Shown: in pieces, positions 1 to 37,726 of the stretch | How positions within the stretch are numbered: position 1 is the first letter of the stretch | How the letters are laid out: each line of letters begins with the position of its first letter | Origin: a virus | Virus record (IMG/VR): IMGVR_UViG_3300028635_000021 | Span: 1 to 37,726 of that record | Length of the DNA: 37,726 bases | Reading direction: 5' to 3' (one strand) | Translations under genes and position numbers: made by a program | Notes under the pieces: generated by a model | What the model saw: only the letters and a program-made list of their open reading frames with translations | Told to the model about the DNA's origin: nothing | Database searches by the model: none

Positions 1-127
1 AGAAGGTTGACGGTTTCATCCCTCCCCAGCATTTCCCCCAATGGCGTAGCCTTCTGTGCTGGTGCTTTTCCATCAGCAACAGCAAGAGTTTTGAGCTCAG
101 AGGGAGAGGGAGAGGGAGAGGGAGAGG
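1..127. repeat. Terminal direct repeat, copy 1 (identical to 37600..37726). This is the overlap of a circular or terminally redundant assembly; unit length 37,599 bp.
   Basis: Bases 1-127 (agaaggttgacgg...gggagagggagagg) are the same string as the last 127 bases of the window. Confidence 0.95.
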
Positions 128-6695: not shown

Positions 6696-6907
6696 ACACG
6701 TCTCGTGGATCCATCATAGTTGCCCCCTTGCAAACCAGCGTACATCCCACAGCAGGGTTTAAATCATTTTAATGTAAACATGACGTTCGATTTACGGACA
6801 TTGCCGGATAAGATCAACACTAATTTCATTAGTGTTCACATATATTAATCGAAGGATTGCACCAGTTTGGCACGCCTTCGCTAAATTGTTCTCGGCCTAT
6901 ATCAAGT

Positions 6908-7444
6908 ATGGTTTATCATTTACTTATGTTTAGAACAGTGTGCCTTTTGTTTATATGCATAAGTATCGCAGCTTGCGCCAAGGATGAGGAAACAAGTACT
7001 CAGCCCGCGGCGGCCGCTCAGCGCATTCCTGAAGAATGTACTTATCAAGTCACTGCCGCCCACACATTTATCGATGGCTATACTTTCAACGCGGACCGAT
7101 ATGACTGCGCACTTCAGTCGCGGATGTCATGCAAACTTTACGATGCAGGTGATGACCAGATCGAACTGCTGTGTGAAGAAATCAACCCGGCGCTGCCCCA
7201 AGGTGTTCCCTCAGGGTGCACGTACCAAGGCGGCAGCTCGACTTCAACTGTCCACTGGTTCATTGGGTACGGCCTTCTTTATTCAGAGGCATACACTTGC
7301 GGGTCGATCGGCGACGGCCTGGCTTGCACATACTTCACCCACCCAGGGAATCAATGCAGTGACACCAATGGAACCGCCGCCGATGATTGTGGACTCTATG
7401 AAGATGATGAAGTCCACGAAGAGATTCGCTGCTCTAAGTTCTAG
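6908..7444 (+). CDS. Cys-rich secreted lipoprotein (moron-like).
   Basis: The start is placed at Met18 of the track ORF. The signal plus lipobox is MVYHLLMFRTVCLLFICISIAAC. The mature part has 10 further Cys and an internal CTYQ...GY...Y.C duplication. An AT-rich region lies upstream. Confidence 0.65.
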   Translation: MVYHLLMFRTVCLLFICISIAACAKDEETSTQPAAAAQRIPEECTYQVTAAHTFIDGYTFNADRYDCALQSRMSCKLYDAGDDQIELLCEEINPALPQGVPSGCTYQGGSSTSTVHWFIGYGLLYSEAYTCGSIGDGLACTYFTHPGNQCSDTNGTAADDCGLYEDDEVHEEIRCSKF

Positions 7445-8106: not shown

Positions 8107-8763
8107 TTAAGCGGCCTTCTTCTTAACTAATTGAACGTGAGGGCGATCCCAAGACAGGAACTCAACGGACACTCCAGCACGTGCAGCCGCAACCTTCATC
8201 TGTCTGCGCATCTCCGCGAATTTCGCGAGGTATTCAGGATCATCCCAATCTTTGGGATTCTTCGGGATGGGGTGAGGGTATGCATCGAATGCTGTGGACG
8301 GCATGGTGTTGTGGCGCGACTTCGGCCACGGGGCTTTCGAATACCCGCCGCGGACAGCTGCATCTTGGTCTGCCTTGTTGCGATGCCCGGTAGTGACAAC
8401 AACAGGAAAGATCTTCTCAAGCTCAGCGGCCATCTTCTGAAGATCGGGGTGACACTGAGCCAGGTTCTTTAAGCTTCGTTCATTATATTTGAAGTCACCC
8501 GTCTGAACAGGCTGCTCTCGTTCATCGGGCTTTTCGGCAAGCGCCGCGACGGCAAGCTTTAAGTGAGCGAGCGTTGTGGTGCCACAGCGGCCATCAACCG
8601 TGAGCTTCCGACTTTGCTGGAATGATCGCACCCCGGCATCAGTGCGCGGTCCGAACTTCCCATCAGCTTCGCCAATGTTAATGCCCAAGGTGATGAGCAT
8701 TCTTTGGATCTGTAAAACCTGAGGGCCTCTGCTGCCTTCTTTATAGATCGCCATTACTTGCAC
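8107..8763 (-). CDS. Endolysin: N-terminal peptidoglycan-binding domain plus C-terminal M15-type (T5-like L-alanyl-D-glutamate / VanY-like) peptidase.
   Basis: GSRGPQVLQIQRMLITLGINIGEADGKFGPRTDAGVRSFQ matches the PG_binding_1 pattern. ...GHRNKADQDAAV...SRHNTMPSTAFDAYP...WDRPHVQL matches the H-x(6)-D ... H zinc-peptidase pattern. Confidence 0.85.
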   Translation of the reverse strand: MQVMAIYKEGSRGPQVLQIQRMLITLGINIGEADGKFGPRTDAGVRSFQQSRKLTVDGRCGTTTLAHLKLAVAALAEKPDEREQPVQTGDFKYNERSLKNLAQCHPDLQKMAAELEKIFPVVVTTGHRNKADQDAAVRGGYSKAPWPKSRHNTMPSTAFDAYPHPIPKNPKDWDDPEYLAKFAEMRRQMKVAAARAGVSVEFLSWDRPHVQLVKKKAA

Positions 8764-9029
8764 CTTTGCTTAGCAATTTGGATGACTGTGTCTGTCCAGT
8801 CTTCTAGTTCGTTGAAGTCATCAAGCGAAACGGCTTGAGCGTTTTCCATGCGAGGATCATTCAGTGCACGGTTCTCACATTTTTTAGTTTCGGAATTGCA
8901 GCAGCGCCATTTGCTGAACTTGATCGAGTAAGTACACTTGTCGTGTTCAGGCGCATCCGGAACTTCTTTGCCACAGCCAATCGCGCTAAGGCTTAGAGCC
9001 ATTGCGATGCAAGCGATCAGACGCTTCAT
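8754..9029 (-). CDS. Lipoprotein, putative o-spanin.
   Basis: MKRLIACIAMALSLSAIGC lipobox. Its start is embedded in the 3-prime end of the i-spanin-like gene, and it lies between the holin and the endolysin. Confidence 0.6.
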   Translation of the reverse strand: MKRLIACIAMALSLSAIGCGKEVPDAPEHDKCTYSIKFSKWRCCNSETKKCENRALNDPRMENAQAVSLDDFNELEDWTDTVIQIAKQRCK

Positions 9030-9207
9030 TGAATTCCTCTTCTGTTTGAGCGTTGTTCAAATCTTCCGATGCTTCTTTGCGTTCTTGTGAGCGCTTCTCA
9101 GCTTCGGCCTTCGCCTTCGCATCGGCTGCATCCTGGGCTTGGCGAACCAAACCCAGGAGCTCCAGAACCAGGCGAATGAGAGACCACAGTCCTGAAAGCC
9201 AACTCAT
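8986..9207 (-). CDS. Putative i-spanin (N-terminal TM segment plus charged coiled coil).
   Basis: MSWLSGLWSLIRLVLELLGLV is followed by QAQDAADAKAKAEAEKRSQERKE... It overlaps the lipoprotein gene by 44 nt. Confidence 0.6.
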   Translation of the reverse strand: MSWLSGLWSLIRLVLELLGLVRQAQDAADAKAKAEAEKRSQERKEASEDLNNAQTEEEFNEASDRLHRNGSKP

Positions 9208-9404
9208 TACTTAGGCTCTTCTTGCTTCGGCTTGCGCGAGAACTTCGAGAGGAAGTCCAATGCTGATTGCAAAGCCTTCTCCGGCTGATCTCCAGGGATG
9301 AGCATCGCCAATGCGATCAGCGCACCAAGTGCGACAACTGCAGACTCGATGATGACCTGGTAATTCGCGAGCAACCATTTTCCTAGTTCTAGAACATTAT
9401 CCAT
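9207..9404 (-). CDS. Putative holin.
   Basis: 65 aa with a hydrophobic core, VIIESAVVALGALIALAMLIPG, and a charged C-terminus. Its position is within the lysis cassette. Confidence 0.55.
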   Translation of the reverse strand: MDNVLELGKWLLANYQVIIESAVVALGALIALAMLIPGDQPEKALQSALDFLSKFSRKPKQEEPK

Positions 9405-9420
9405 TCGCTTCTCCTTTGGC

Positions 9421-9615
9421 TTAGTTAAGCCGGTTTAATTTCCATTCCACGTAAACAATTAGAATTGCGGCAACGACTCCATTCAGCCAGCCACTGGCTT
9501 TTCCAAACACACCGCGAGCTCCGCGCAATTCAGCCATCTCTTCGCGCAGCTTCTTAATGTCCGCGCGCATCTCCTGATTGAGTTCTAGTAGAAGAGTGAG
9601 TCGGTCGGATTCCAT
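9421..9615 (-). CDS. Small membrane protein (coiled coil plus C-terminal TM segment). Possibly a holin partner or antiholin.
   Basis: 64 aa, ...WLNGVVAAILIVYVEW... It lies between the tail fibre and the holin. Confidence 0.45.
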   Translation of the reverse strand: MESDRLTLLLELNQEMRADIKKLREEMAELRGARGVFGKASGWLNGVVAAILIVYVEWKLNRLN

Positions 9616-9618
9616 CGA

Positions 9619-11592
9619 CTATCCATTCCAGCCCGTGACGCGCCAACGCGCATTCCACATGATTTTGTCGCCGCTTGCCCACGTGAAAGGGATGTTGGAA
9701 GAGGTATTTGCCTGAGCCCCGTAGCTGCCCGACGCAGCAGAAGCACTTAAAAATACGGCGCTCGATGAAACGGTATGAACTTTGCCTTCAAAATATGTGG
9801 AGTTACCATTGTTGACGAATGCAGATTGTCCCAAGGGGTGAACTTTCGTACTTGGCGAAGGATATACCGCGGGATCAAATGCATAGGCTGCCGGAACAGT
9901 AACGGTAAGCTGTGTTAGGGAAAATGCACCACTTGCAGTGGTGATGCCTTCGACTTCTAACCATTGCCCATTCCGCGTGAGGCTTACGGATGTAGAACAA
10001 TTGGACTCACTATCCGTCCACGCTTCTGTGGCCGAAAAGGCAGTGCGCCTTTCAAGGATGAGCCAATTCGATCCATCACAAACAATCTTTAACTTTTCAT
10101 ATTGTGTGTTAAGCGTCGTCGTCGTGGCGCCGTTAATGGTTTCCGAGGAATTGCCGTCAACGGTGATAGCGTTCGCCGAAGAGTCCGTCTTGATGATCTC
10201 AAGTACAGCTCCGGAGTTTCCCGATGCCGCGGGCAGATTTACCGTGAATGCACCGCCACTCGCATCACAGCGAATTACATCGTCTGACGTGGTGGCCGAA
10301 TAGGTGCTTGTCTTAGATGAAGTAACGGTGACCTTAGCCACCGCTCCGGTCGCAAGCTTAGGCCGCGAAACAGATCCCTCTTCCGGTGTCGCGAGTTCAA
10401 GCGTTTGAAAGTTGGTTCCATCGTAAACCAATGTGTAAACGCGCCCGGTTGTAATGTTACCGGCGACAAGCGCGGCGCCGGACTGAGTCTTCAAATCTTT
10501 ATTGCCAAGGCCAGAGACGTTTACGGTCACAGCACCGGTGTTTGTATTTGTGGCCTTGAAGGCAACGCGAATGCCATTGCTGTAAGAACCAAGCGCCGGG
10601 CTTGTGGTGAGCGTTATGGCGTCACCAGTTCCGCCAACTGTTCCGGCCCAGAGAAGTGTGGCTGCGCTCGCAGCATACGCAGCGGCGTTCGATTCGCTCA
10701 ATGCGGCAGCGGCTTCGCTCGCGGCTGCGTTTGTTTCCGACGTCGCGGCGGCGGTCTCTGAGGCAGCGGCAGCCGTTTCGCTCGCGGCGGCATTGGTCTC
10801 CGAAGTCGCAGCGGCAGTTTCACTTGCGGCGGCCGCGGTCTCACTCGCAGCTGCATTTGTTTCCGATGTTGCGGCAGCGGTCTCTGAAGCGGCGGCGGCG
10901 GTTTCGCTTGCAGCTGCGGCGGTCTCTGAGGCGGCTGCGTTTGTTTCCGACGTCGCGGCGGCAGTCTCTGAGGCAGCGGCAGCGGAAGCGCTTGCAGCTG
11001 CGGCAGTTTCGCTTGCATCAGCTGCAGTTTCAGATGCGGCGGCGGCCAATTCAGACGCAGCGGCCGCGGCAGCACTTGCAGCGGCTAATATCGCTTGCTC
11101 ATCAGGATCATAGTCGGAATTCTCGAAGACACCCTCGGCAGTCCACTTGAGTGTCTTGCCGGTGCTGGGCTCCGGAAGCTCAGCGCCTTCCGAGGAGCTT
11201 GTGACCGGGAACTTAAGAGCTCGCCCGATGCGCTCTGCAAGCATAATGTTTTGAATGTGAAGTCGATTAATCTCGGCTTGAAGATCATAGGTGCTGATGT
11301 TGTTCAGCAGAGACAAGTCATACTCTGAGCCAAGCCCAGGCACGTTGATGATCAGCACATCAAGTGTTGAAGCCGGCGCGCTCAACATTGTAATCGAGCC
11401 ACCCTCGGCACTTTCATTTAATGAGACCGTGTAATCCGTTGTGAGCGTCTTTAATGTACCCACGCCCGTTGAGCGAACTATCGTGTATACAAGCAGGTCG
11501 CTCGCTTGGATCACCGCGAAGTCAAAAGTGAACAGGACGGTCGATGCGTCCCCTGTGTGCTTAATCCGATTTGTCTCGTTACTGACTGCCAT
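9619..11592 (-). CDS. Tail fibre protein with a long Ala-rich heptad stalk.
   Basis: 657 aa. The N-terminus ...IKHTGDASTVLFTFDF... resembles podovirus fibre N-termini. It has about 20 SETAAAx heptads and a C-terminal beta-rich domain (...KLKIVCDGSNWLILE...). It is the last virion gene before lysis. Confidence 0.8.
   Translation of the reverse strand: MAVSNETNRIKHTGDASTVLFTFDFAVIQASDLLVYTIVRSTGVGTLKTLTTDYTVSLNESAEGGSITMLSAPASTLDVLIINVPGLGSEYDLSLLNNISTYDLQAEINRLHIQNIMLAERIGRALKFPVTSSSEGAELPEPSTGKTLKWTAEGVFENSDYDPDEQAILAAASAAAAAASELAAAASETAADASETAAAASASAAAASETAAATSETNAAASETAAAASETAAAASETAAATSETNAAASETAAAASETAAATSETNAAASETAAAASETAAATSETNAAASEAAAALSESNAAAYAASAATLLWAGTVGGTGDAITLTTSPALGSYSNGIRVAFKATNTNTGAVTVNVSGLGNKDLKTQSGAALVAGNITTGRVYTLVYDGTNFQTLELATPEEGSVSRPKLATGAVAKVTVTSSKTSTYSATTSDDVIRCDASGGAFTVNLPAASGNSGAVLEIIKTDSSANAITVDGNSSETINGATTTTLNTQYEKLKIVCDGSNWLILERRTAFSATEAWTDSESNCSTSVSLTRNGQWLEVEGITTASGAFSLTQLTVTVPAAYAFDPAVYPSPSTKVHPLGQSAFVNNGNSTYFEGKVHTVSSSAVFLSASAASGSYGAQANTSSNIPFTWASGDKIMWNARWRVTGWNG
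10660..11091 (-). repeat. Tandem 21-nt (7-aa) coding repeat array with a 63-nt higher-order unit.
   Basis: aa 168-311 of the fibre: SETAAAA/SETAAAT/SETNAAA units repeated. The complementary strand gives long mirror Ala-rich ORFs. Confidence 0.9.
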
Positions 11593-30440: not shown

Positions 30441-31196
30441 TCATTCACTGCATTGCCTCTGTTCAGAGCCTTCATATTCTTGGACAAGTCTGCGCAATCG
30501 AATCGCGTGTGTCGCAATAATTTGGCATACACGGCTTTCAGAAACTTGGAGTTGTTTGCCAATTTGTTTCATGCGCAAAGCTTCAAAGAAGTAGGCGTCC
30601 AATATTCTTTTGGTGCGCGGAGCTTGGCGCTCAATGTATGTGGCAACTAGTTCAAGAACACGCTTGTGGTGAATCTTGTTGATCAGCTTTTCTTCTGTGG
30701 TCTCGCCGCCGGTTACAACTTCCATTAAGGACTTGCGATCGATGTCTCGAATCGTGCCCTGATGCTCCATTGAAACCACGGTCAAGGGCTGAGCCATTGT
30801 TTCTAGGGTGAAGGCTTCTTCTGTGGAGCATCCGAGGTGCTTTCCAACCTCATCGATTCGTGGCCGGCGGCCGTATTCCATGGTCAAGAACTCAACGGCT
30901 CTATCGAATTCCTTTTGTCGATCGCGAACAGACCTGGGCGCAATGTCCACTGAGCGCAACTCATCAAGCATCGCGCCGCGGATGCGGAATTCTGCATAGG
31001 TCTTGAATTTGTTCTCGCGCTTGCGGTCGAACTTACGGGCAGCATCGATGAGGCCCGTGTTGCCGGCGGACACCAAGTCATCTCGTTCTATATTGGATGG
31101 AAGGCGCGCAATCATCTTGTCCGCGACAAAGCGGACCAGCTTCTGATTCTCTTCAATCAGTTCGAATTCATCCTTTAGTTCTTCGGCGGCGCTCAT
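30441..31196 (-). CDS. Sigma-70-family sigma factor of the FliA/sigma-28 type.
   Basis: 251 aa. Region 2 is DLVSAGNTGLIDAARKFDRKRENKFKTYAEFRIRGAMLDELRSVDIAPRSVR (compare E. coli FliA ...RIRGAMLDELRSRDWVPRSVR). Region 4 is LRMKQIGKQLQVSESRVCQIIATHAIRLRRL. Confidence 0.9.
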   Translation of the reverse strand: MSAAEELKDEFELIEENQKLVRFVADKMIARLPSNIERDDLVSAGNTGLIDAARKFDRKRENKFKTYAEFRIRGAMLDELRSVDIAPRSVRDRQKEFDRAVEFLTMEYGRRPRIDEVGKHLGCSTEEAFTLETMAQPLTVVSMEHQGTIRDIDRKSLMEVVTGGETTEEKLINKIHHKRVLELVATYIERQAPRTKRILDAYFFEALRMKQIGKQLQVSESRVCQIIATHAIRLRRLVQEYEGSEQRQCSE

Positions 31197-33490: not shown

Positions 33491-33683
33491 TGATCAAGCT
33501 CCCTGTTTCCTTGGGCTCAAAGCATCGCTTGCCTGACTTGAGGTAAGCTTCACCCTCTGGCCCGTTCATCTTCTTGTGAGCATCCTCCAGCTTGTCGCAG
33601 TAGTAACCATTGGGTCCTTCGCCTTCCATCACATTGCCTTCGTAGTGATTCAGCCAAAGACAGTTCGCGCAGTTCTTCTTCAT
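33480..33683 (-). CDS. Cys-containing small protein.
   Basis: MKKNCANCLW...YYCDK...KRCFEP. Confidence 0.45.
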   Translation of the reverse strand: MKKNCANCLWLNHYEGNVMEGEGPNGYYCDKLEDAHKKMNGPEGEAYLKSGKRCFEPKETGSLINEV

Positions 33684-34051
33684 TCGTTCCCCTTCAGCCG
33701 CGCGATCTCGCCGGCATATTCGAACACTCGCGCCTCTTCCGCTTTGAGCAGGGCGCGGGTTTCATCAAGCTCCACCTTGAGTGCGTCGTGCGCGGACTTC
33801 TCGATGACATGAATCAGTCCGTATTGCCATTGCAACGGTCCCTGATGTGGATGCTTTGTATAGGCGTCACCGAAATAGATCGACTCTTCATCATCCTTCT
33901 CATGCTGATCCTCATCGATCCAAAACTCACGCGGCTTTGCGCTGGCCGGGGTGGGGTTGATGCGAGCGCGGTCCTCTGCTTCAAGCTTGTCGAGATTGCA
34001 CCACTGGCACGGCATTGCCATCTTGTGGGTCGGGCATCTGTCGGGAGTCAT
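33680..34051 (-). CDS. Hypothetical protein (123 aa).
   Basis: Its ATG overlaps the GT2 stop (ATGA). Confidence 0.5.
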   Translation of the reverse strand: MTPDRCPTHKMAMPCQWCNLDKLEAEDRARINPTPASAKPREFWIDEDQHEKDDEESIYFGDAYTKHPHQGPLQWQYGLIHVIEKSAHDALKVELDETRALLKAEEARVFEYAGEIARLKGNE

Positions 34052-35541
34052 GTATCACCTTGATCTTTCAGAACAGTTAGATTTATCCAGGCATTGAAGA
34101 GCGTGAAGAACGTAGTCGGAGCAAAGTCCTCGAACCGATCGAGGCGCTTGCCAATCCCAATTAGCGTGAGTGTTGTAGATATACAGATGACATAGAACAT
34201 TGCATTTCTAAATTGTAAGAAGCGCTCAACCTTCTTTGTGTTTCCCGACGGCTGCCATGAAACGAGCTCGCCCCTTAGCTTATCGATGAACGCAAAGAAG
34301 TAAGCATAGCTCGCGACTTGTCTCGCGCGTGGTGCATACAGCCCGAACTTGTGCGTTGTCCACATTGGAACAACAAGGAAGCCATAGAGAAACGAAGGGA
34401 AACTAAAGACTAGGTTGTACCAATGAACAAGCTCAGGGAAAAACCAGATAAGAATTAGACTCGGCATTGAGATCAAAAACACAGTCACGCCGCTTGAAAT
34501 ATAGAAGAGCATTCCACTTAGGTAACAAGCCTTCTGCATGATGGTTAGATTCGATGTCCAAAATTTCCGACTTAGGAATAGCGAGATTGAGCCCGTTGCC
34601 CAGCGGTATTGCTGCAGAAAGAAGCTCTTTAAATCATTCGGGCATATGCCACGCGCGAGACACACCGGAACATACTTCACCCGCCATCCAGCGTCCGTAA
34701 CCATGAAGCCAGTGTGCACGTCCTCAGAGTATGCAATCGCAGCGGTTCCACCAAAGGGTTCGAGCGCTGACCTTCTATAGAGAGCGTTGGAGCCCACACA
34801 AATGGGCGCTCTAAAGTGATCGCGTGAAACTTGGATCAGCCGATAGAAAAGTTCTTGAATATAACCCGCACCCTTCTCAACCCACGTCTGCTCATTGAGC
34901 ACGCTAAAGAACTGAGGCGTCTGCACAATCGCGGTTGTTGGATCATTGTGCATATAGATAAGCGTCTCTTGGAGGAAGTTCGGATGAGGACAAAAGTCAG
35001 CGTCGAAGACTACGAAGAAATCTCCGGACGTTTGAGCAAAGGCGTTTCGTAAATTGCCAGCCTTCTTAAGCTCCCCTGGGTTGGCGCGCGTAATGTAGTT
35101 GAAGCCAAACTCTTCAGCCAAAAATTTCACATGCAGATCAGCTGCATCGTCGAGAACAAAAACCTTTAGGCTCTTGTAGCTAAGTCTCGAGATATGAATC
35201 CATGTATTTCGAAGTACCTCAAGGGGTTCGCCACACACGGGCAAGTAAACGTCAACGGATCCCATGTCGTAGTTGAACTGAAGACTTGAAAGAACTCGAT
35301 GCTGTTCAAAATCAAAGTCGCGCCCGAGAAGGCCAATCAAATAAGATAGCCCTAGGTACACAGTCATGACGACCGCATAAGCTGAGAAGAAGAACAATGC
35401 TGGATGTGCGGTGACGTATAGCCAAAGACCGACAAGCAAACTCAGGACACTCAAAACTCCCGGCGCATACAGGGAGTATCGCCGGGGTTTCGAATACATG
35501 AACCGCTCGAAGTCTTCGGGCGCTTTCGGTAGAACTACCAT
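34048..35541 (-). CDS. Integral-membrane processive family-2 glycosyltransferase of the BcsA/CrdS (cellulose-synthase-like) type, without a PilZ domain.
   Basis: 497 aa. Ordered motifs are VFVLDD, KKAGNLRNAF, VVFDADF, QTPQFF, VGSNALYRRSAL, SEDVHTGF and QQYRWATG (Q-x-x-R-W). There are two N-terminal and several C-terminal hydrophobic segments. Confidence 0.85.
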   Translation of the reverse strand: MVVLPKAPEDFERFMYSKPRRYSLYAPGVLSVLSLLVGLWLYVTAHPALFFFSAYAVVMTVYLGLSYLIGLLGRDFDFEQHRVLSSLQFNYDMGSVDVYLPVCGEPLEVLRNTWIHISRLSYKSLKVFVLDDAADLHVKFLAEEFGFNYITRANPGELKKAGNLRNAFAQTSGDFFVVFDADFCPHPNFLQETLIYMHNDPTTAIVQTPQFFSVLNEQTWVEKGAGYIQELFYRLIQVSRDHFRAPICVGSNALYRRSALEPFGGTAAIAYSEDVHTGFMVTDAGWRVKYVPVCLARGICPNDLKSFFLQQYRWATGSISLFLSRKFWTSNLTIMQKACYLSGMLFYISSGVTVFLISMPSLILIWFFPELVHWYNLVFSFPSFLYGFLVVPMWTTHKFGLYAPRARQVASYAYFFAFIDKLRGELVSWQPSGNTKKVERFLQFRNAMFYVICISTTLTLIGIGKRLDRFEDFAPTTFFTLFNAWINLTVLKDQGDT

Positions 35542-35912
35542 AGATTAATCGTGAGCTTTCCAATGATCTCTTGAACTACGGTGTCTTCCGAAAGCTCACC
35601 TTCACGTGGGCGATATGCCAGACGAATACCCGGAGACACAGTCAAGAATTCGCCCACGAATATATCCACGGAGTTCTTCGTGACGAACCACTTCGAGTAA
35701 GAGTCACCCTCATCTTCAAGCATAGAGTCACCAAAGCCAGTCCATGAATTCAAAGCAGCTCTATCAGAAATGAGAGTCTCATAAATCCCAAGGCCAACCA
35801 TGTAAGTGGTTTGTTCATTCTTCGGATTATATCGCGGCTCGAAAGATAGCTTGCCGCTTGCGAACACAGAACCAGTAAAGAACATAAACATTAGAATCAA
35901 AGTTGCACGCAT
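35535..35912 (-). CDS. Small exported protein, possibly an outer-membrane beta-barrel.
   Basis: The start is placed at the ATG at 35912, behind tagggggtatttat. The signal peptide is MRATLILMFMFFTGSVFA. It has alternating hydrophobic strands and ends ...GKLTINLW. It overlaps the GT2 start by 7 nt. Confidence 0.55.
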   Translation of the reverse strand: MRATLILMFMFFTGSVFASGKLSFEPRYNPKNEQTTYMVGLGIYETLISDRAALNSWTGFGDSMLEDEGDSYSKWFVTKNSVDIFVGEFLTVSPGIRLAYRPREGELSEDTVVQEIIGKLTINLW

Positions 35913-35959
35913 ATAAATACCCCCTAAGGTCTTTGCGTTTTGTTTTCTTGAAGATGAAT

Positions 35960-36199
35960 TCAAAAATCTGTTGTGCCATTCCTTCGCTTTGCGAGCGCAG
36001 CATCTAGCGGTTCACCTAGAATGAACTCCATACTTTTCGTTTGTGCTTTCCCCCTTTCAAAATCGAATTCAATTACACTTGAGGTCTTAATAATTTCGCC
36101 GTCCTTAAAACGTGGATGATCGTATATATACCCAAAGACTTGATTCTGTGGACCTATATACCAATGCTCGATTCTCGGGCGCTTGCCCGTCTCGCTCAC
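35960..36199 (-). CDS. Hypothetical protein (79 aa, GTG start).
   Basis: GTGA overlap with the upstream micro-ORF and a 4-nt overlap with the track start of the downstream ORF. Confidence 0.5.
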   Translation of the reverse strand: MSETGKRPRIEHWYIGPQNQVFGYIYDHPRFKDGEIIKTSSVIEFDFERGKAQTKSMEFILGEPLDAALAKRRNGTTDF

Positions 36200-37599: not shown

Positions 37600-37726
37600 A
37601 GAAGGTTGACGGTTTCATCCCTCCCCAGCATTTCCCCCAATGGCGTAGCCTTCTGTGCTGGTGCTTTTCCATCAGCAACAGCAAGAGTTTTGAGCTCAGA
37701 GGGAGAGGGAGAGGGAGAGGGAGAGG
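37600..37726. repeat. Terminal direct repeat, copy 2 (identical to 1..127).
   Basis: Exact identity read base by base. Confidence 0.95.

What the first reader, a model, noticed from the sequence alone, without database searches (positions are those of the whole stretch)
34048..36199. Phage-borne minimal beta-glycan synthase module: BcsA-like GT2 without PilZ, a small exported barrel-like protein and a 79-aa partner
Seen in sequence: the 497-aa ORF carries, in the canonical order, the motif set of processive cellulose/curdlan-type synthases. These are VFVLDD, KKAGNLRNAF, VVFDADF, QTPQFF, VGSNALYRRSAL, SEDVHTGF and QQYRWATG, flanked by hydrophobic segments. The ORF stops after the C-terminal membrane segments with no PilZ domain. 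It is joined by 4-7 nt start/stop overlaps to a 125-aa protein. That protein has a cleavable signal peptide, alternating-hydrophobic strands and a terminal ...INLW, as in outer-membrane barrels. Upstream of that lies a 79-aa protein. Established knowledge: the Q-x-x-R-W GT2 enzymes polymerise and translocate beta-glycans, and BcsA normally needs its c-di-GMP-binding PilZ domain plus BcsB/BcsC partners. Inference: this virus carries a compact, c-di-GMP-independent three-gene unit for making and exporting a polysaccharide. It could remodel the envelope of the infected or lysogenised cell, for example by masking receptors, excluding superinfecting phage, or building biofilm or cyst matrix. I am not aware of such a trio described as a phage system.
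Basis: partly seen in the sequence, partly recalled or inferred. Interest (0 to 1): 0.8.

Follow-up and report, generated by a model that had tools for sequence, protein, structure and literature searches.

The report
Phage cellulose-synthase-like enzyme with small partner
A complete 37.6-kb phage genome carries a two-gene cassette, found in many different phages, that pairs a stripped-down cellulose-synthase-type enzyme with a tiny secreted beta-sheet protein of a previously unnamed family; it probably lets the virus coat its Gram-negative host with a sugar polymer, but no product has been shown.

Summary
The 497-aa ORF (34048-35541, minus strand) is a full membrane-embedded processive GT2. 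All BcsA catalytic motifs align, and a confident model (pLDDT 92) matches BcsA best (TM 0.74, E 1e-24). The protein ends 5 residues after its last membrane helix, so it has no PilZ or other C-terminal domain.

The 125-aa signal-peptide protein (35535-35912) is a true partner. It lies upstream on the same strand in every testable member of one phage clade of the GT2 tree. Its stop lies within -10 to +15 nt of the GT2 start in 22 of 26 unique loci. The two genes co-diverge (Mantel r 0.77). It is absent from the chlorovirus, fungal and actinobacterial relatives.

The 79-aa ORF is not part of the unit; it has no homolog in 134 related loci. So this is a mobile two-gene cassette, not a trio.

The partner has no Pfam or PHROG family. 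It is predicted as six long amphipathic strands and resembles small outer-membrane barrels only weakly. Polymer identity, export route and benefit to the phage are inferred.

Chlorovirus A473L is the nearest viral precedent.

Verdict: new variant of a known kind, moderately high interest.

The parts
34048..35541 (-). Gene for a 497-aa PilZ-less, BcsA-like membrane GT2 synthase. Predicted layout: two N-terminal membrane helices (residues 21-72), a GT-A domain (96-300), an interface helix carrying QQYRW (304-322), membrane helices 334-356 and 369-394, an interface helix at 402-423, a loop with invariant W429 and G433 at the gating-loop position, and membrane helices 439-464 and 467-492.
35535..35912 (-). 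Gene for the 125-aa conserved partner. It has a Sec-type signal peptide (residues 1-18, ...VFA|SGK) and then six predicted long amphipathic beta-strands. W57, W75 and the C-terminal W125 are invariant. It has no Pfam, PHROG, NCBIfam or PADLOC family.
35535..35541 (-). A 7-nt overlap (ATGGTAG) between the partner's stop codon and the GT2 start codon, implying translational coupling.
   Evidence: The same tight junction (-10 to +15 nt) occurs in 22 of 26 unique related loci.
35920..35925 (-). A Shine-Dalgarno-like AGGGGG, 7 nt upstream of the partner's ATG. It supports the 125-aa start rather than the upstream TTG.
   Evidence: sequence read directly. Public gene calls also give 125 aa.

Best explanation
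This is a mobile two-gene phage cassette. SHOWN: the downstream gene encodes an inner-membrane, processive-type family-2 glycosyltransferase. It has the complete catalytic core and membrane-channel architecture of bacterial cellulose synthase BcsA, but no PilZ or any other C-terminal domain, and no BcsB is present. The upstream gene encodes a roughly 105-aa (mature) secreted all-beta protein that is inherited with the synthase and translationally coupled to it. INFERRED: the synthase polymerises a beta-linked glycan from a UDP-sugar and threads it through its own channel into the periplasm. The most likely product is a beta-glucan made from UDP-glucose, because the closest characterised structures are cellulose and mixed-linkage glucan synthases. 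With no c-di-GMP gate, activity would be set simply by phage transcription. The small partner would act on the envelope side in a Gram-negative host. Most likely it is an outer-membrane-inserted, probably oligomeric, beta-sheet protein that passes the polymer across the outer membrane or anchors it there. The infected cell would then become coated with phage-specified polysaccharide. Plausible benefits are blocking adsorption of competing phages or clumping host cells. This would be analogous to the hyaluronan or chitin coat that chloroviruses put on infected algae. The overall confidence of 0.5 breaks down roughly as follows: enzyme class about 0.9, functional pairing with the small protein about 0.8, outer-membrane role of the partner about 0.4, and the biological purpose about 0.3.
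For: Enzyme identity. Pfam gives GT2 families plus the C-terminal part of Cellulose_synt. NCBIfam's best hits are CelA/BcsA. D, DxD, (S/T)ED and QxxRW align with BcsA and are invariant in 34 homologs at 44-71% identity. The AF2 model has pLDDT 91.9, and its best structural match over the whole length is BcsA (E 1e-24, TM 0.74), followed by CesA, CslF6 and HAS.

Partner linkage. The partner is present upstream on the same strand in 32 of 135 loci, and all 32 fall in one GT2 clade. The one clade member without it (L010) is cut by a contig end. Only these two genes recur among neighbours in 33 loci. The junction is -10 to +15 nt in 22 of 26 unique loci. The distance matrices are correlated (Mantel r 0.77; 0 of 5000 permutations reached it). 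Searching from the partner side gave a GT2 directly downstream in 7 of 7 loci, and again in L147.

Envelope role. The partner has a signal peptide and six strands of 11-15 residues. One strand face is hydrophobic but variable; the other carries conserved charged residues. Turns at one end are short (3-4 residues) and two loops at the other end are long and variable. The terminal W is invariant. The fold matches with the highest TM-scores are OmpX/OprH and phage 'outer membrane protein-like beta-barrel' proteins. The partner is absent exactly where I believe hosts lack an outer membrane: chloroviruses and other giant viruses, fungi, Actinomycetota and Saccharibacteria.

Diderm host. The lysis cassette contains an i-spanin-like and an overlapping lipobox o-spanin-like gene, and the portal is nearest to those of podophages of Proteobacteria.

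Real, complete phage. The window has a 127-bp terminal repeat, and identical genomes were assembled in about 31 samples with different start points.
Against: No product, activity or localisation has been measured. The partner's resemblance to outer-membrane barrels is not significant (PDB E >= 0.026, TM about 0.5; viral library E 3e-4 at best), and six strands cannot close a membrane barrel as a monomer. The partner is not strictly tied to this GT2. In L148/L150 it overlaps a 330-aa unknown protein, and in L149 it sits between HNH genes beside lysis genes, with no BcsA-like GT2 in view. The sugar specificity is open, since NodC, PgaC and HpnI profiles also match weakly. No promoter or terminator sets the cassette apart, so the timing of expression (lytic or lysogenic) is unknown. 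The spanin assignment rests on sequence features only, with no family hits. No integrated copy of this phage was seen.
Confidence: 0.5

Rival explanations
1. The enzyme is the same, but the small protein is a soluble periplasmic glycan-binding or guiding factor, doing roughly the job of BcsB's periplasmic domains, and not an outer-membrane component. The polymer would then stay in the periplasm, or leave through host machinery. A periplasmic glucan could itself hinder DNA entry by other phages.
For: Only six strands are predicted, and there is no significant OMP fold or family match. Three tryptophans (W57, W75, W125) and Y44 are invariant or nearly so, as in carbohydrate-binding surfaces. The C-terminal residue pattern (hydrophobic at -1, -3, -5, -7 plus a terminal W) is not the classical beta-signal register (read).
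Against: The conserved residues lie on the polar face of the strands while the hydrophobic face is variable, and the short-turn/long-loop alternation is membrane-barrel-like. The highest-probability fold matches are membrane barrels. The partner is absent from all lineages whose hosts, as far as I know, lack an outer membrane. A cellular relative of the GT2 (L070) has a clear outer-membrane-type protein, ending ...GIAYRF, in the same upstream position. That protein is not homologous, and it is a single case.
Confidence: 0.25
2. The GT2 makes a GlcNAc-containing polymer or oligomer (chitin-, PNAG-, hyaluronan- or Nod-factor-like) rather than a beta-glucan.
For: NodC (E 5e-16) and PgaC (E 2e-11) profiles match. 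The gating-loop position carries W-x-P-(S/T)-G rather than BcsA's FxVTxK; from memory, chitin and hyaluronan synthases have a WGT-type motif there. Chloroviruses, whose A473L is a sister of this enzyme, also make hyaluronan and chitin using other GT2s.
Against: BcsA/CelA profiles score far higher (177 against 59 and 43 bits). Structure ranking puts BcsA, CesA and CslF6 above HAS. The phage carries no UDP-sugar-supply genes among the ORFs I scanned.
Confidence: 0.15
3. The enzyme is not a polymer exporter. Instead it adds one or a few sugars to a membrane lipid or envelope glycan, in the manner of ceramide-glucosyltransferase or HpnI, or of serotype conversion, changing the receptor directly.
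For: Glyco_transf_21 (E 2e-12) and HpnI (E 5e-13) profiles match. Phage serotype-converting GT2s are the well-known precedent (own knowledge).
Against: The enzyme has the full BcsA-like six-helix channel with three interface helices, plus QxxRW and the QTPQFF and CVGS motifs that hold the acceptor chain. No GtrA/GtrC-like partners are present. GtrB-type folds do not appear among the top matches.
Confidence: 0.08
4. One reading: an obligate three-gene unit that includes the 79-aa protein.
For: The 79-aa ORF is on the same strand and ends 47 nt upstream of the partner's start.
Against: It has no homolog in 134 related loci, including the closest one, L007. No third family recurs in more than 5 of 33 loci. 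Its only family signals are weak and unrelated to glycans: phrog_11960 (E 4e-7) and DUF6634 below cut-off.
Confidence: 0.03

Closest known systems
Bacterial cellulose synthase BcsA (E. coli, Cereibacter sphaeroides; PDB 9b8v, 4p00, 4hg6)
   Same: The GT-A catalytic core with D, DxD, (S/T)ED and QxxRW, the QTPxxF and (F)CxGS acceptor motifs, three interface helices and the channel-forming membrane helices. It is the best sequence match (E 5e-33) and the best fold match (TM 0.74).
   Different: The phage enzyme has only 2 N-terminal helices, where BcsA has four by my recollection of its structure. It has no PilZ domain, no C-terminal extension, no BcsB/BcsC/BcsZ genes, and a W-x-P-(S/T)-G loop instead of FxVTxK. 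It scores far below the NCBIfam equivalog cut-offs (177 against 699 bits).
Chlorovirus PBCV-1 A473L ('CESA CelA-like', six membrane helices, product unknown; PMC5408694)
   Same: It belongs to the same roughly 495-520-aa PilZ-less family. Identity is 43-47% over the full length, including the N-terminal LPxxPxxxEKYxY motif, and it too is virus-encoded. L103 is identified as PBCV-1 from its contig length of 330,611 bp and an adjacent ribonucleotide-reductase small-subunit gene on the opposite strand. That identification rests on my own knowledge of the PBCV-1 genome and is an inference.
   Different: The host is eukaryotic, and there is no small partner gene. No function is known for it either, so it offers no mechanism to borrow.
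Chlorovirus hyaluronan and chitin synthases (CvHAS, PDB 7sp6 and others)
   Same: A virus-encoded, self-sufficient, unregulated processive GT2 that coats the infected cell with polymer. This is the best functional analogy.
   Different: It is more distant in fold ranking (E 1e-12, TM 0.45-0.5), uses a different sugar, and needs no outer-membrane step.
PilZ-less beta-glucan synthases: S. meliloti BgsA with BgsB, fungal AfTFT1, barley CslF6 (mixed-linkage glucan)
   Same: BcsA-like GT2s that work without a PilZ domain. AfTFT1 alone suffices for polymer production in yeast. BgsBA is also a two-gene unit.
   Different: BgsA binds c-di-GMP through a C-terminal domain that the phage enzyme lacks. 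BgsB is not related to the phage partner as far as I tested (the partner has no family hits). A link between the phage enzyme's fungal homologs and the AfTFT1 lineage could not be established, because no Aspergillus protein appeared among the top 120 relatives of P0119.
Small phage-encoded outer-membrane beta-barrel-like proteins (cyanophage 'outer membrane protein-like beta-barrel' / DUF680; OmpX/Ail/Lom type)
   Same: Similar size (112-125 aa), a signal peptide and a long-strand beta meander. They give the best TM-scores, 0.5-0.6.
   Different: There is no significant sequence or profile similarity. Six strands are predicted rather than eight. None of these proteins is known to partner a synthase.

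Membership tests
Processive membrane-embedded GT2 synthases (BcsA/CesA/HAS/CHS/NodC superfamily) | A GT-A domain with D, DxD, (S/T)ED and Q-x-x-R-W in canonical order | tested here: met
   The motifs lie at residues 127-132, 180-182, 272-274 and 310-314. They align to BcsA and are invariant in 34 homologs.
Processive membrane-embedded GT2 synthases (BcsA/CesA/HAS/CHS/NodC superfamily) | A membrane channel formed by helices flanking the GT domain, with amphipathic interface helices | tested here: met
   The AF2 model has pLDDT 91.9 with 6 membrane helices and interface helices. Its full-length fold match to BcsA has TM 0.74 and E 1e-24. This is a prediction, not an experiment.
Processive membrane-embedded GT2 synthases (BcsA/CesA/HAS/CHS/NodC superfamily) | Polymerises and translocates a glycan | not testable with these tools
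   This needs expression and polymer analysis.
Bacterial cellulose synthase BcsA proper (NCBIfam TIGR03030 / NF008558 equivalogs) | Score above the curated equivalog cut-off | tested here: not met
   177.3 bits against a cut-off of 699.1, and 145.6 bits against 992.
Bacterial cellulose synthase BcsA proper (NCBIfam TIGR03030 / NF008558 equivalogs) | A C-terminal c-di-GMP-binding PilZ domain | tested here: not met
   There is no PilZ hit, and the protein ends 5 residues after its last membrane helix.
Bacterial cellulose synthase BcsA proper (NCBIfam TIGR03030 / NF008558 equivalogs) | A BcsB partner, plus BcsC/BcsZ, in the locus | tested here: not met
   The neighbours have no such families. The only large ORFs in the genome are virion proteins. 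No such family recurs in related loci.
Bacterial cellulose synthase BcsA proper (NCBIfam TIGR03030 / NF008558 equivalogs) | The FxVTxK gating-loop motif | tested here: inconclusive
   The loop at the equivalent position (424-438) carries W429-Q-P-S-G433, with W and G invariant. It may be a variant of the motif.
PilZ-less ~495-aa 'CelA-like' family that includes chlorovirus A473L (uncharacterised) | Full-length similarity including the N-terminal LPxxPxxxEKYxY motif, and the same 2 + 4 helix layout | tested here: met
   Identity is 41-47% over residues 1-494 to chlorovirus and giant-virus loci. The motif is seen in L103, L100, L045 and across the clade.
GtrB-type phage serotype-conversion GT2 (non-processive) | A bactoprenol-phosphate glucosyltransferase profile and architecture, with GtrA/GtrC partners | tested here: not met
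   There are no such profile hits. The top hits are processive synthases, and there are no GtrA/GtrC-like neighbours.
Outer-membrane beta-barrel proteins (for the 125-aa partner) | A cleavable Sec signal peptide | tested here: met
   The conserved n-h-c region ends AFA|SGK across 28 family members. It was read from the sequence; no dedicated predictor was available.
Outer-membrane beta-barrel proteins (for the 125-aa partner) | A closed barrel of at least 8 membrane-spanning strands in one chain | tested here: not met
   The AF2 model (pLDDT 80.7) has six strands. A barrel would require oligomerisation, which was not testable here.
Outer-membrane beta-barrel proteins (for the 125-aa partner) | Amphipathic strands, short periplasmic turns with longer outer loops, and a C-terminal aromatic residue | tested here: met
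   All six strands show face asymmetry in hydropathy. The turns at 30-33, 49-51 and 87-89 are short, and the loops at 65-73 and 101-111 are long. The terminal W is invariant. These features are suggestive, not specific.
Outer-membrane beta-barrel proteins (for the 125-aa partner) | A significant sequence or fold match to a known OMP family | tested here: inconclusive
   Pfam, NCBIfam and PHROGs give nothing. The PDB profile search gives nothing below E 0.24. Foldseek against the PDB gives a best E of 0.026, with OmpX/OprH at TM 0.51-0.53. The viral library gives E 3e-4 to 0.1 against OMP-like phage proteins.

The most novel reading that the evidence does not exclude
The cassette is a complete, self-contained trans-envelope polysaccharide secretion system made of just two proteins. 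One is an ungated synthase-translocase in the inner membrane. The other belongs to a new family of roughly 105-residue proteins that oligomerise into an outer-membrane conduit or anchor. It would be the smallest synthase-dependent exopolysaccharide system known. It would be confined to viruses, spread among unrelated phages, and used to wrap the infected Gram-negative cell in a virus-specified glycan, as the bacterial counterpart of the chlorovirus hyaluronan/chitin coat.
Probability: 0.3. Interest if true: 0.8.

Novelty: new variant of a known kind. Interest (0 to 1): 0.62.

Why it matters
Phage glycosyltransferases known to alter the host surface are, to my knowledge, non-processive serotype-converting enzymes. 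A processive polymer synthase that is conserved across many phages would be a different way for a virus to remodel its host. If the two genes suffice, they would define a minimal, signal-independent route for making a polysaccharide and getting it across a Gram-negative envelope. That would be useful as a model for how synthase-dependent systems work, and as a compact tool for producing beta-glycans. The small partner would be a new envelope protein family with 294 clusters and no annotation. The family tree also links phages, giant algal viruses, fungi and brown algae at 41-47% identity, which points to virus-mediated exchange of wall-polymer synthases. Finally, the cassette offers an experimentally tractable bacterial handle on chlorovirus A473L, whose function is still unknown.

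Tried and rejected
1. The 79-aa ORF as a third component was rejected.
2. The downstream 123-aa ORF, joined by the 4-nt overlap, was also rejected as a component. Its only similarity is a weak one to unrelated small ORFs in L003.
3. I could not link the enzyme to the biochemically proven fungal mixed-linkage glucan synthase AfTFT1. The fungal homolog lineage (P0119) listed no Aspergillus protein among its top 120 relatives, so no claim is made.
4. The pseudomonad 'orphan BcsA-like' proteins are GH17-GT2 fusions of about 870 aa, which is a different family.
5. The Streptomyces relatives are not the CslA-GlxA system: the neighbours in L085 are a PMT-type protein and a large Ig-repeat protein.
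6. The 218-aa OMP-like protein upstream of the GT2 in the gammaproteobacterial locus L070 is not homologous to the phage partner (hhalign probability 1.5%). It is a positional analogue only.
7. Neither protein matches a known anti-phage defence component (PADLOC).
8. Promoter and terminator scans found nothing above chance, and there are no tRNA genes, so expression timing and the attachment site remain unknown.
9. The 330-aa protein coupled to the partner in L148 could not be identified with Pfam, PHROGs or PDB sequences.
10. Host identification did not get beyond 'Gram-negative, probably proteobacterial'.


Full report
THE OBSERVATION. The three minus-strand ORFs exist as described. They are a 497-aa ORF at 34048-35541, a 125-aa ORF at 35535-35912 and a 79-aa ORF at 35960-36199. 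The 125-aa ORF has an ATG preceded by an AGGGGG Shine-Dalgarno-like site; the mechanical ORF list extends it to an upstream TTG. The seven quoted motifs lie at residues 127, 159, 177, 207, 249, 272 and 310. The stop of the 125-aa gene overlaps the start of the 497-aa gene by 7 nt (ATGGTAG). The 4-nt overlap (ATGA) joins the 497-aa gene to the next ORF downstream, which is 123 aa. A public gene call used a later start (P0001, 483 aa). The first 14 residues are conserved in homologs, however (consensus MxLPxAPxDxEKYxY), so the long form and the overlap are correct.

THE SETTING. The window is a complete phage genome. It carries an integrase, a RecT/exonuclease pair, an endolysin, a tail fibre, internal virion proteins, a tail protein, a major capsid protein, a portal, a large terminase and a sigma-70-family factor. 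It has a 127-bp terminal direct repeat, and independent assemblies read across its ends at 100% identity. The identical GT2 was found on contigs of about 37.6-37.7 kb in about 31 sample blocks, and never on a longer contig. So the phage is recurrent and circular or circularly permuted, and no integrated copy was seen. The portal is nearest to those of podophages of Proteobacteria, at 25-39% identity. The lysis region reads holin-like, then i-spanin-like (73 aa, N-terminal membrane helix), then an overlapping 91-aa lipoprotein with lipobox LSAIG|C, then the endolysin. I take this to indicate a Gram-negative host. That assignment rests on sequence features only, because the spanin candidates hit no family.

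THE ENZYME. Pfam places the 497-aa protein in the GT2 families, and its 272-365 region in Cellulose_synt. No PilZ domain is detected. NCBIfam ranks CelA (E 4e-52) and BcsA (E 1.5e-42) first, far ahead of NodC, HpnI, PgaC and MdoH, but well below the equivalog cut-offs. The alignment to E. coli BcsA matches the following motif pairs (BcsA / phage): ilDDg / vlDDa, kAGNinn / kAGNlrn, fDcDh / fDaDf, QTPhhF / QTPqfF, fcGSc..iRR / cvGSn..yRR, tEDahT / sEDvhT and QriRWarG / QqyRWatG. These residues are invariant in 34 homologs that share only 44-71% identity with the query. The AlphaFold model is confident (pLDDT 91.9, pTM 0.90). It shows two N-terminal membrane helices, the GT-A domain, an interface helix carrying QQYRW, two membrane helices, another interface helix, a loop with invariant W429 and G433 where BcsA has its gating loop, and two final membrane helices ending at residue 492 of 497. 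Foldseek ranks E. coli BcsA first (E 1e-24, TM 0.74). Cereibacter BcsA follows, then plant CesA and barley CslF6, then hyaluronan synthases. Non-processive GT2s come far behind. It is not GtrB-like, the catalytic residues align, and one neighbour co-occurs with it.

THE PARTNER. In the first two related phage contigs examined, a 118-122-aa gene overlaps the GT2 start. Its product aligns with the window's 125-aa protein at 38-46% identity. A profile of this family hits 32 of 135 loci collected through the GT2. The hit is always on the same strand and almost always directly upstream. On an identity-based clustering of the GT2s, these loci form one coherent clade. The only clade member without the partner (L010) is cut off 248 nt upstream of its GT2. 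Among 26 unique clade loci, 22 have the partner's stop within -10 to +15 nt of the GT2 start. Clustering all neighbouring ORFs within 5 kb in 33 loci finds no other family in more than 5 loci, so the backbones differ and only the pair travels together. The backbones include roughly 35-45-kb phages and jumbo-phage-like contigs of 113-210 kb. The two proteins' distance matrices are correlated (Mantel r 0.77; 0 of 5000 permutations reached it), and the partner evolves faster, with mean identity 26% against 47%. Searching from the partner side recovered seven loci, all with the GT2 directly downstream, and L147 as well.

EXCEPTIONS. In a divergent sub-branch of the partner family (P0137, P0138), the small gene is not followed by this GT2. 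In L148/L150 it overlaps the end of an unidentifiable 330-aa protein with a WIDCDVLF motif. That phage also carries an epimerase/dehydratase, a split transketolase, a 2-hydroxyacid dehydrogenase and a radical-SAM enzyme upstream. In L149 the small gene lies between HNH endonuclease genes, next to a GH25 lysozyme. The pairing is therefore very strong but not absolute.

WHAT THE PARTNER LOOKS LIKE. It has no Pfam, NCBIfam, PHROG or PADLOC family. An exhaustive profile search of 1.84 billion representatives finds 294 clusters, all stand-alone proteins of about 105-130 aa. The family has a signal peptide ending AFA|SGK. G40, W57, G59, G61, W75, D83, P94, G95 and the C-terminal W are invariant. The model (pLDDT 80.7) has six antiparallel strands of 11-15 residues. 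Each strand has one hydrophobic but variable face. The other face carries the family's conserved polar or charged residues (K21, E25, K79, D83, R97, E115, K119). Connections at one end are 3-4 residues long, and two at the other end are long, variable and of low confidence. This is the pattern of small outer-membrane barrels, but six strands cannot close such a barrel alone. Fold searches give nothing significant in the PDB (best E 0.026). The hits with the highest TM-scores are OmpX and OprH (0.51-0.53), and the viral library gives marginal matches (E 3e-4 to 0.1, TM 0.45-0.60) to phage proteins labelled outer-membrane-protein-like beta-barrel, DUF680, Opacity or porin.

WHERE THE PARTNER IS MISSING. 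The partner is missing from the sister group of the phage clade. That group comprises chloroviruses, including what I take to be PBCV-1 A473L, other giant viruses such as a 752-kb contig with poxvirus-type late transcription factor and protein kinase genes, and fungi. It is also missing from the Actinomycetota, Saccharibacteria and Chloroflexota relatives. To my knowledge these hosts lack an outer membrane.

A SINGLE POSITIONAL ANALOGUE. One cellular relative just outside the clade is a gammaproteobacterial contig in a neighbourhood of heptosyltransferase, epimerase and GT2 genes. It has a 218-aa protein ending ...VVSFGIAYRF 33 nt upstream of its GT2. That protein is not homologous to the phage partner. 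This is a single analogy and nothing more.

THE 79-AA ORF. It has no homolog in any related locus, including L007, whose GT2 is 70% identical. Its only signals are a weak PHROG of unknown function and a sub-threshold DUF6634 match. It is a neighbour, not a component.

MECHANISM. The following are shown: the enzyme's family and predicted architecture, the absence of any regulatory domain, the conserved coupling to a secreted beta-protein, and the viral and probably Gram-negative setting. The following are inferred. First, the enzyme polymerises a beta-glycan and extrudes it into the periplasm; I consider a beta-glucan most likely, because cellulose and mixed-linkage glucan synthases are its nearest characterised relatives. 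Second, its activity depends only on phage transcription. Third, the partner handles the polymer at or across the outer membrane. Fourth, the coat benefits the phage, for example by excluding competitors or clumping hosts, as proposed for the hyaluronan or chitin fibres that chloroviruses induce. The timing of expression is unknown. The cassette lies in a run of small same-strand genes between the integrase and a pair of opposite-strand genes, upstream of the sigma factor and the structural genes, and it has no recognisable promoter or terminator of its own.

COMPARISON AND NOVELTY. As an enzyme, this is a member of the BcsA/CesA/HAS superfamily, and of an uncharacterised PilZ-less sub-family of about 495 aa that already includes chlorovirus A473L, described as 'CESA CelA-like' with six membrane helices (PMC5408694). 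It is not a BcsA equivalog, because the score, PilZ and BcsB criteria all fail. Isolated-phage records hold only a distant relative: Synechococcus phage S-CBWM1, 35% identity over 61% of the query, annotated 'putative cellulose synthase'. PHROGs holds two matching families of unknown function. Literature searches found no description of a phage synthase-plus-small-partner cassette. That library is not exhaustive. What is new is the conserved, virus-restricted pairing with an unannotated small envelope protein, and its spread across unrelated phages. I rate it a new variant of a known kind, with interest about 0.6.

Noticed in passing
window 1-127 and 37600-37726: There is a 127-bp terminal direct repeat, and the window's end contains a (GGGAGA)n tract. 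Other assemblies read straight across the junction at 100% identity, so the contig is a complete circular or circularly permuted genome of about 37.6 kb.
   Followed up: yes
window 8754-9615 (minus strand): The lysis cassette is of Gram-negative type. It has two small holin-like membrane proteins (9421-9615, 9207-9404), a 73-aa i-spanin-like protein (8986-9207) and an overlapping 91-aa lipoprotein with lipobox LSAIG|C (8754-9029), all just upstream of the endolysin (8107-8763). None of the small proteins hits a Pfam family.
   Followed up: partly
window 9619-11592 (minus strand): The tail-fibre protein contains a long, near-perfect tandem array of Ala/Ser/Glu/Thr-rich units (...AAASETAAAASETAAATSETN...) covering roughly residues 180-300.
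   Followed up: no
window 6857-7444 (plus strand): A cysteine-rich 195-aa ORF lies on the opposite strand to almost all other genes. It has a lipoprotein-like signal (...LFICISIAAC|AKD) and no family hits. It could be a moron or a surface protein.
   Followed up: no
window 30441-31196 (minus strand): The phage encodes a sigma-70-family factor (regions 2, 3 and 4), lying between the early small-gene block that holds the cassette and the structural genes. A sigma-like gene also lies near the cassette in the jumbo-phage-like locus L138.
   Followed up: no
window 34001-36000: The cassette has lower GC (46.5-48.4%) than most of the genome (mostly 50-58%), and its AT skew is reversed (+0.12 to +0.13 against mostly negative elsewhere). 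This fits T-rich membrane-protein codons, horizontal acquisition, or both.
   Followed up: no
window 33680-34051; L003 9005-9280 and 9277-9558: The 123-aa ORF downstream of the GT2 shares a 'KPREFW ... (I/V)HVIEKSA(H/Y)' motif with small ORFs that lie upstream of the cassette in another phage. This looks like a small phage protein family of unknown function, unrelated to the cassette.
   Followed up: partly
L148/L150 (contig SRR30224745_139284) and L149 (JAWVGZ010014253.1): Divergent members of the partner family occur without the BcsA-like GT2. One overlaps a 330-aa unknown protein with a DxD-like WIDCDVLF motif, in a phage that also carries radical-SAM, 2-hydroxyacid dehydrogenase, epimerase/dehydratase and split-transketolase genes. 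The other lies between HNH endonuclease genes beside a GH25 lysozyme.
   Followed up: partly
L070 5252-7506 (Gammaproteobacteria MAG, 535-kb contig): A cellular relative of the GT2 lies next to heptosyltransferase, epimerase and GT2 genes. Directly upstream of it is a 218-aa outer-membrane-type protein (ending ...GIAYRF) that is not homologous to the phage partner.
   Followed up: partly
L100, L117, L127 (one 288,047-bp giant-virus contig); L103 (330,611-bp contig): One chlorovirus-sized genome carries three paralogues of this GT2 (34-46% identity to the phage enzyme). Another carries one copy next to a ribonucleotide-reductase small-subunit gene, which fits PBCV-1 A473L.
   Followed up: partly
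P0100, P0119, P0148-P0252 (proteins, not loci): Fungal proteins (Dothideomycetes, Sordariomycetes, Leotiomycetes, Agaricomycetes) and brown-algal proteins share 45-48% identity with the phage enzyme. That is closer than the bacterial cellular relatives (about 40%), and suggests gene exchange between viruses and eukaryotes. Some fungal members carry an extra PF01670 (GH12) domain.
   Followed up: partly
L106 2847-3281: A second, weaker partner-like ORF (E 2e-9) lies about 2.7 kb upstream of the regular partner-GT2 pair in one phage contig.
   Followed up: no
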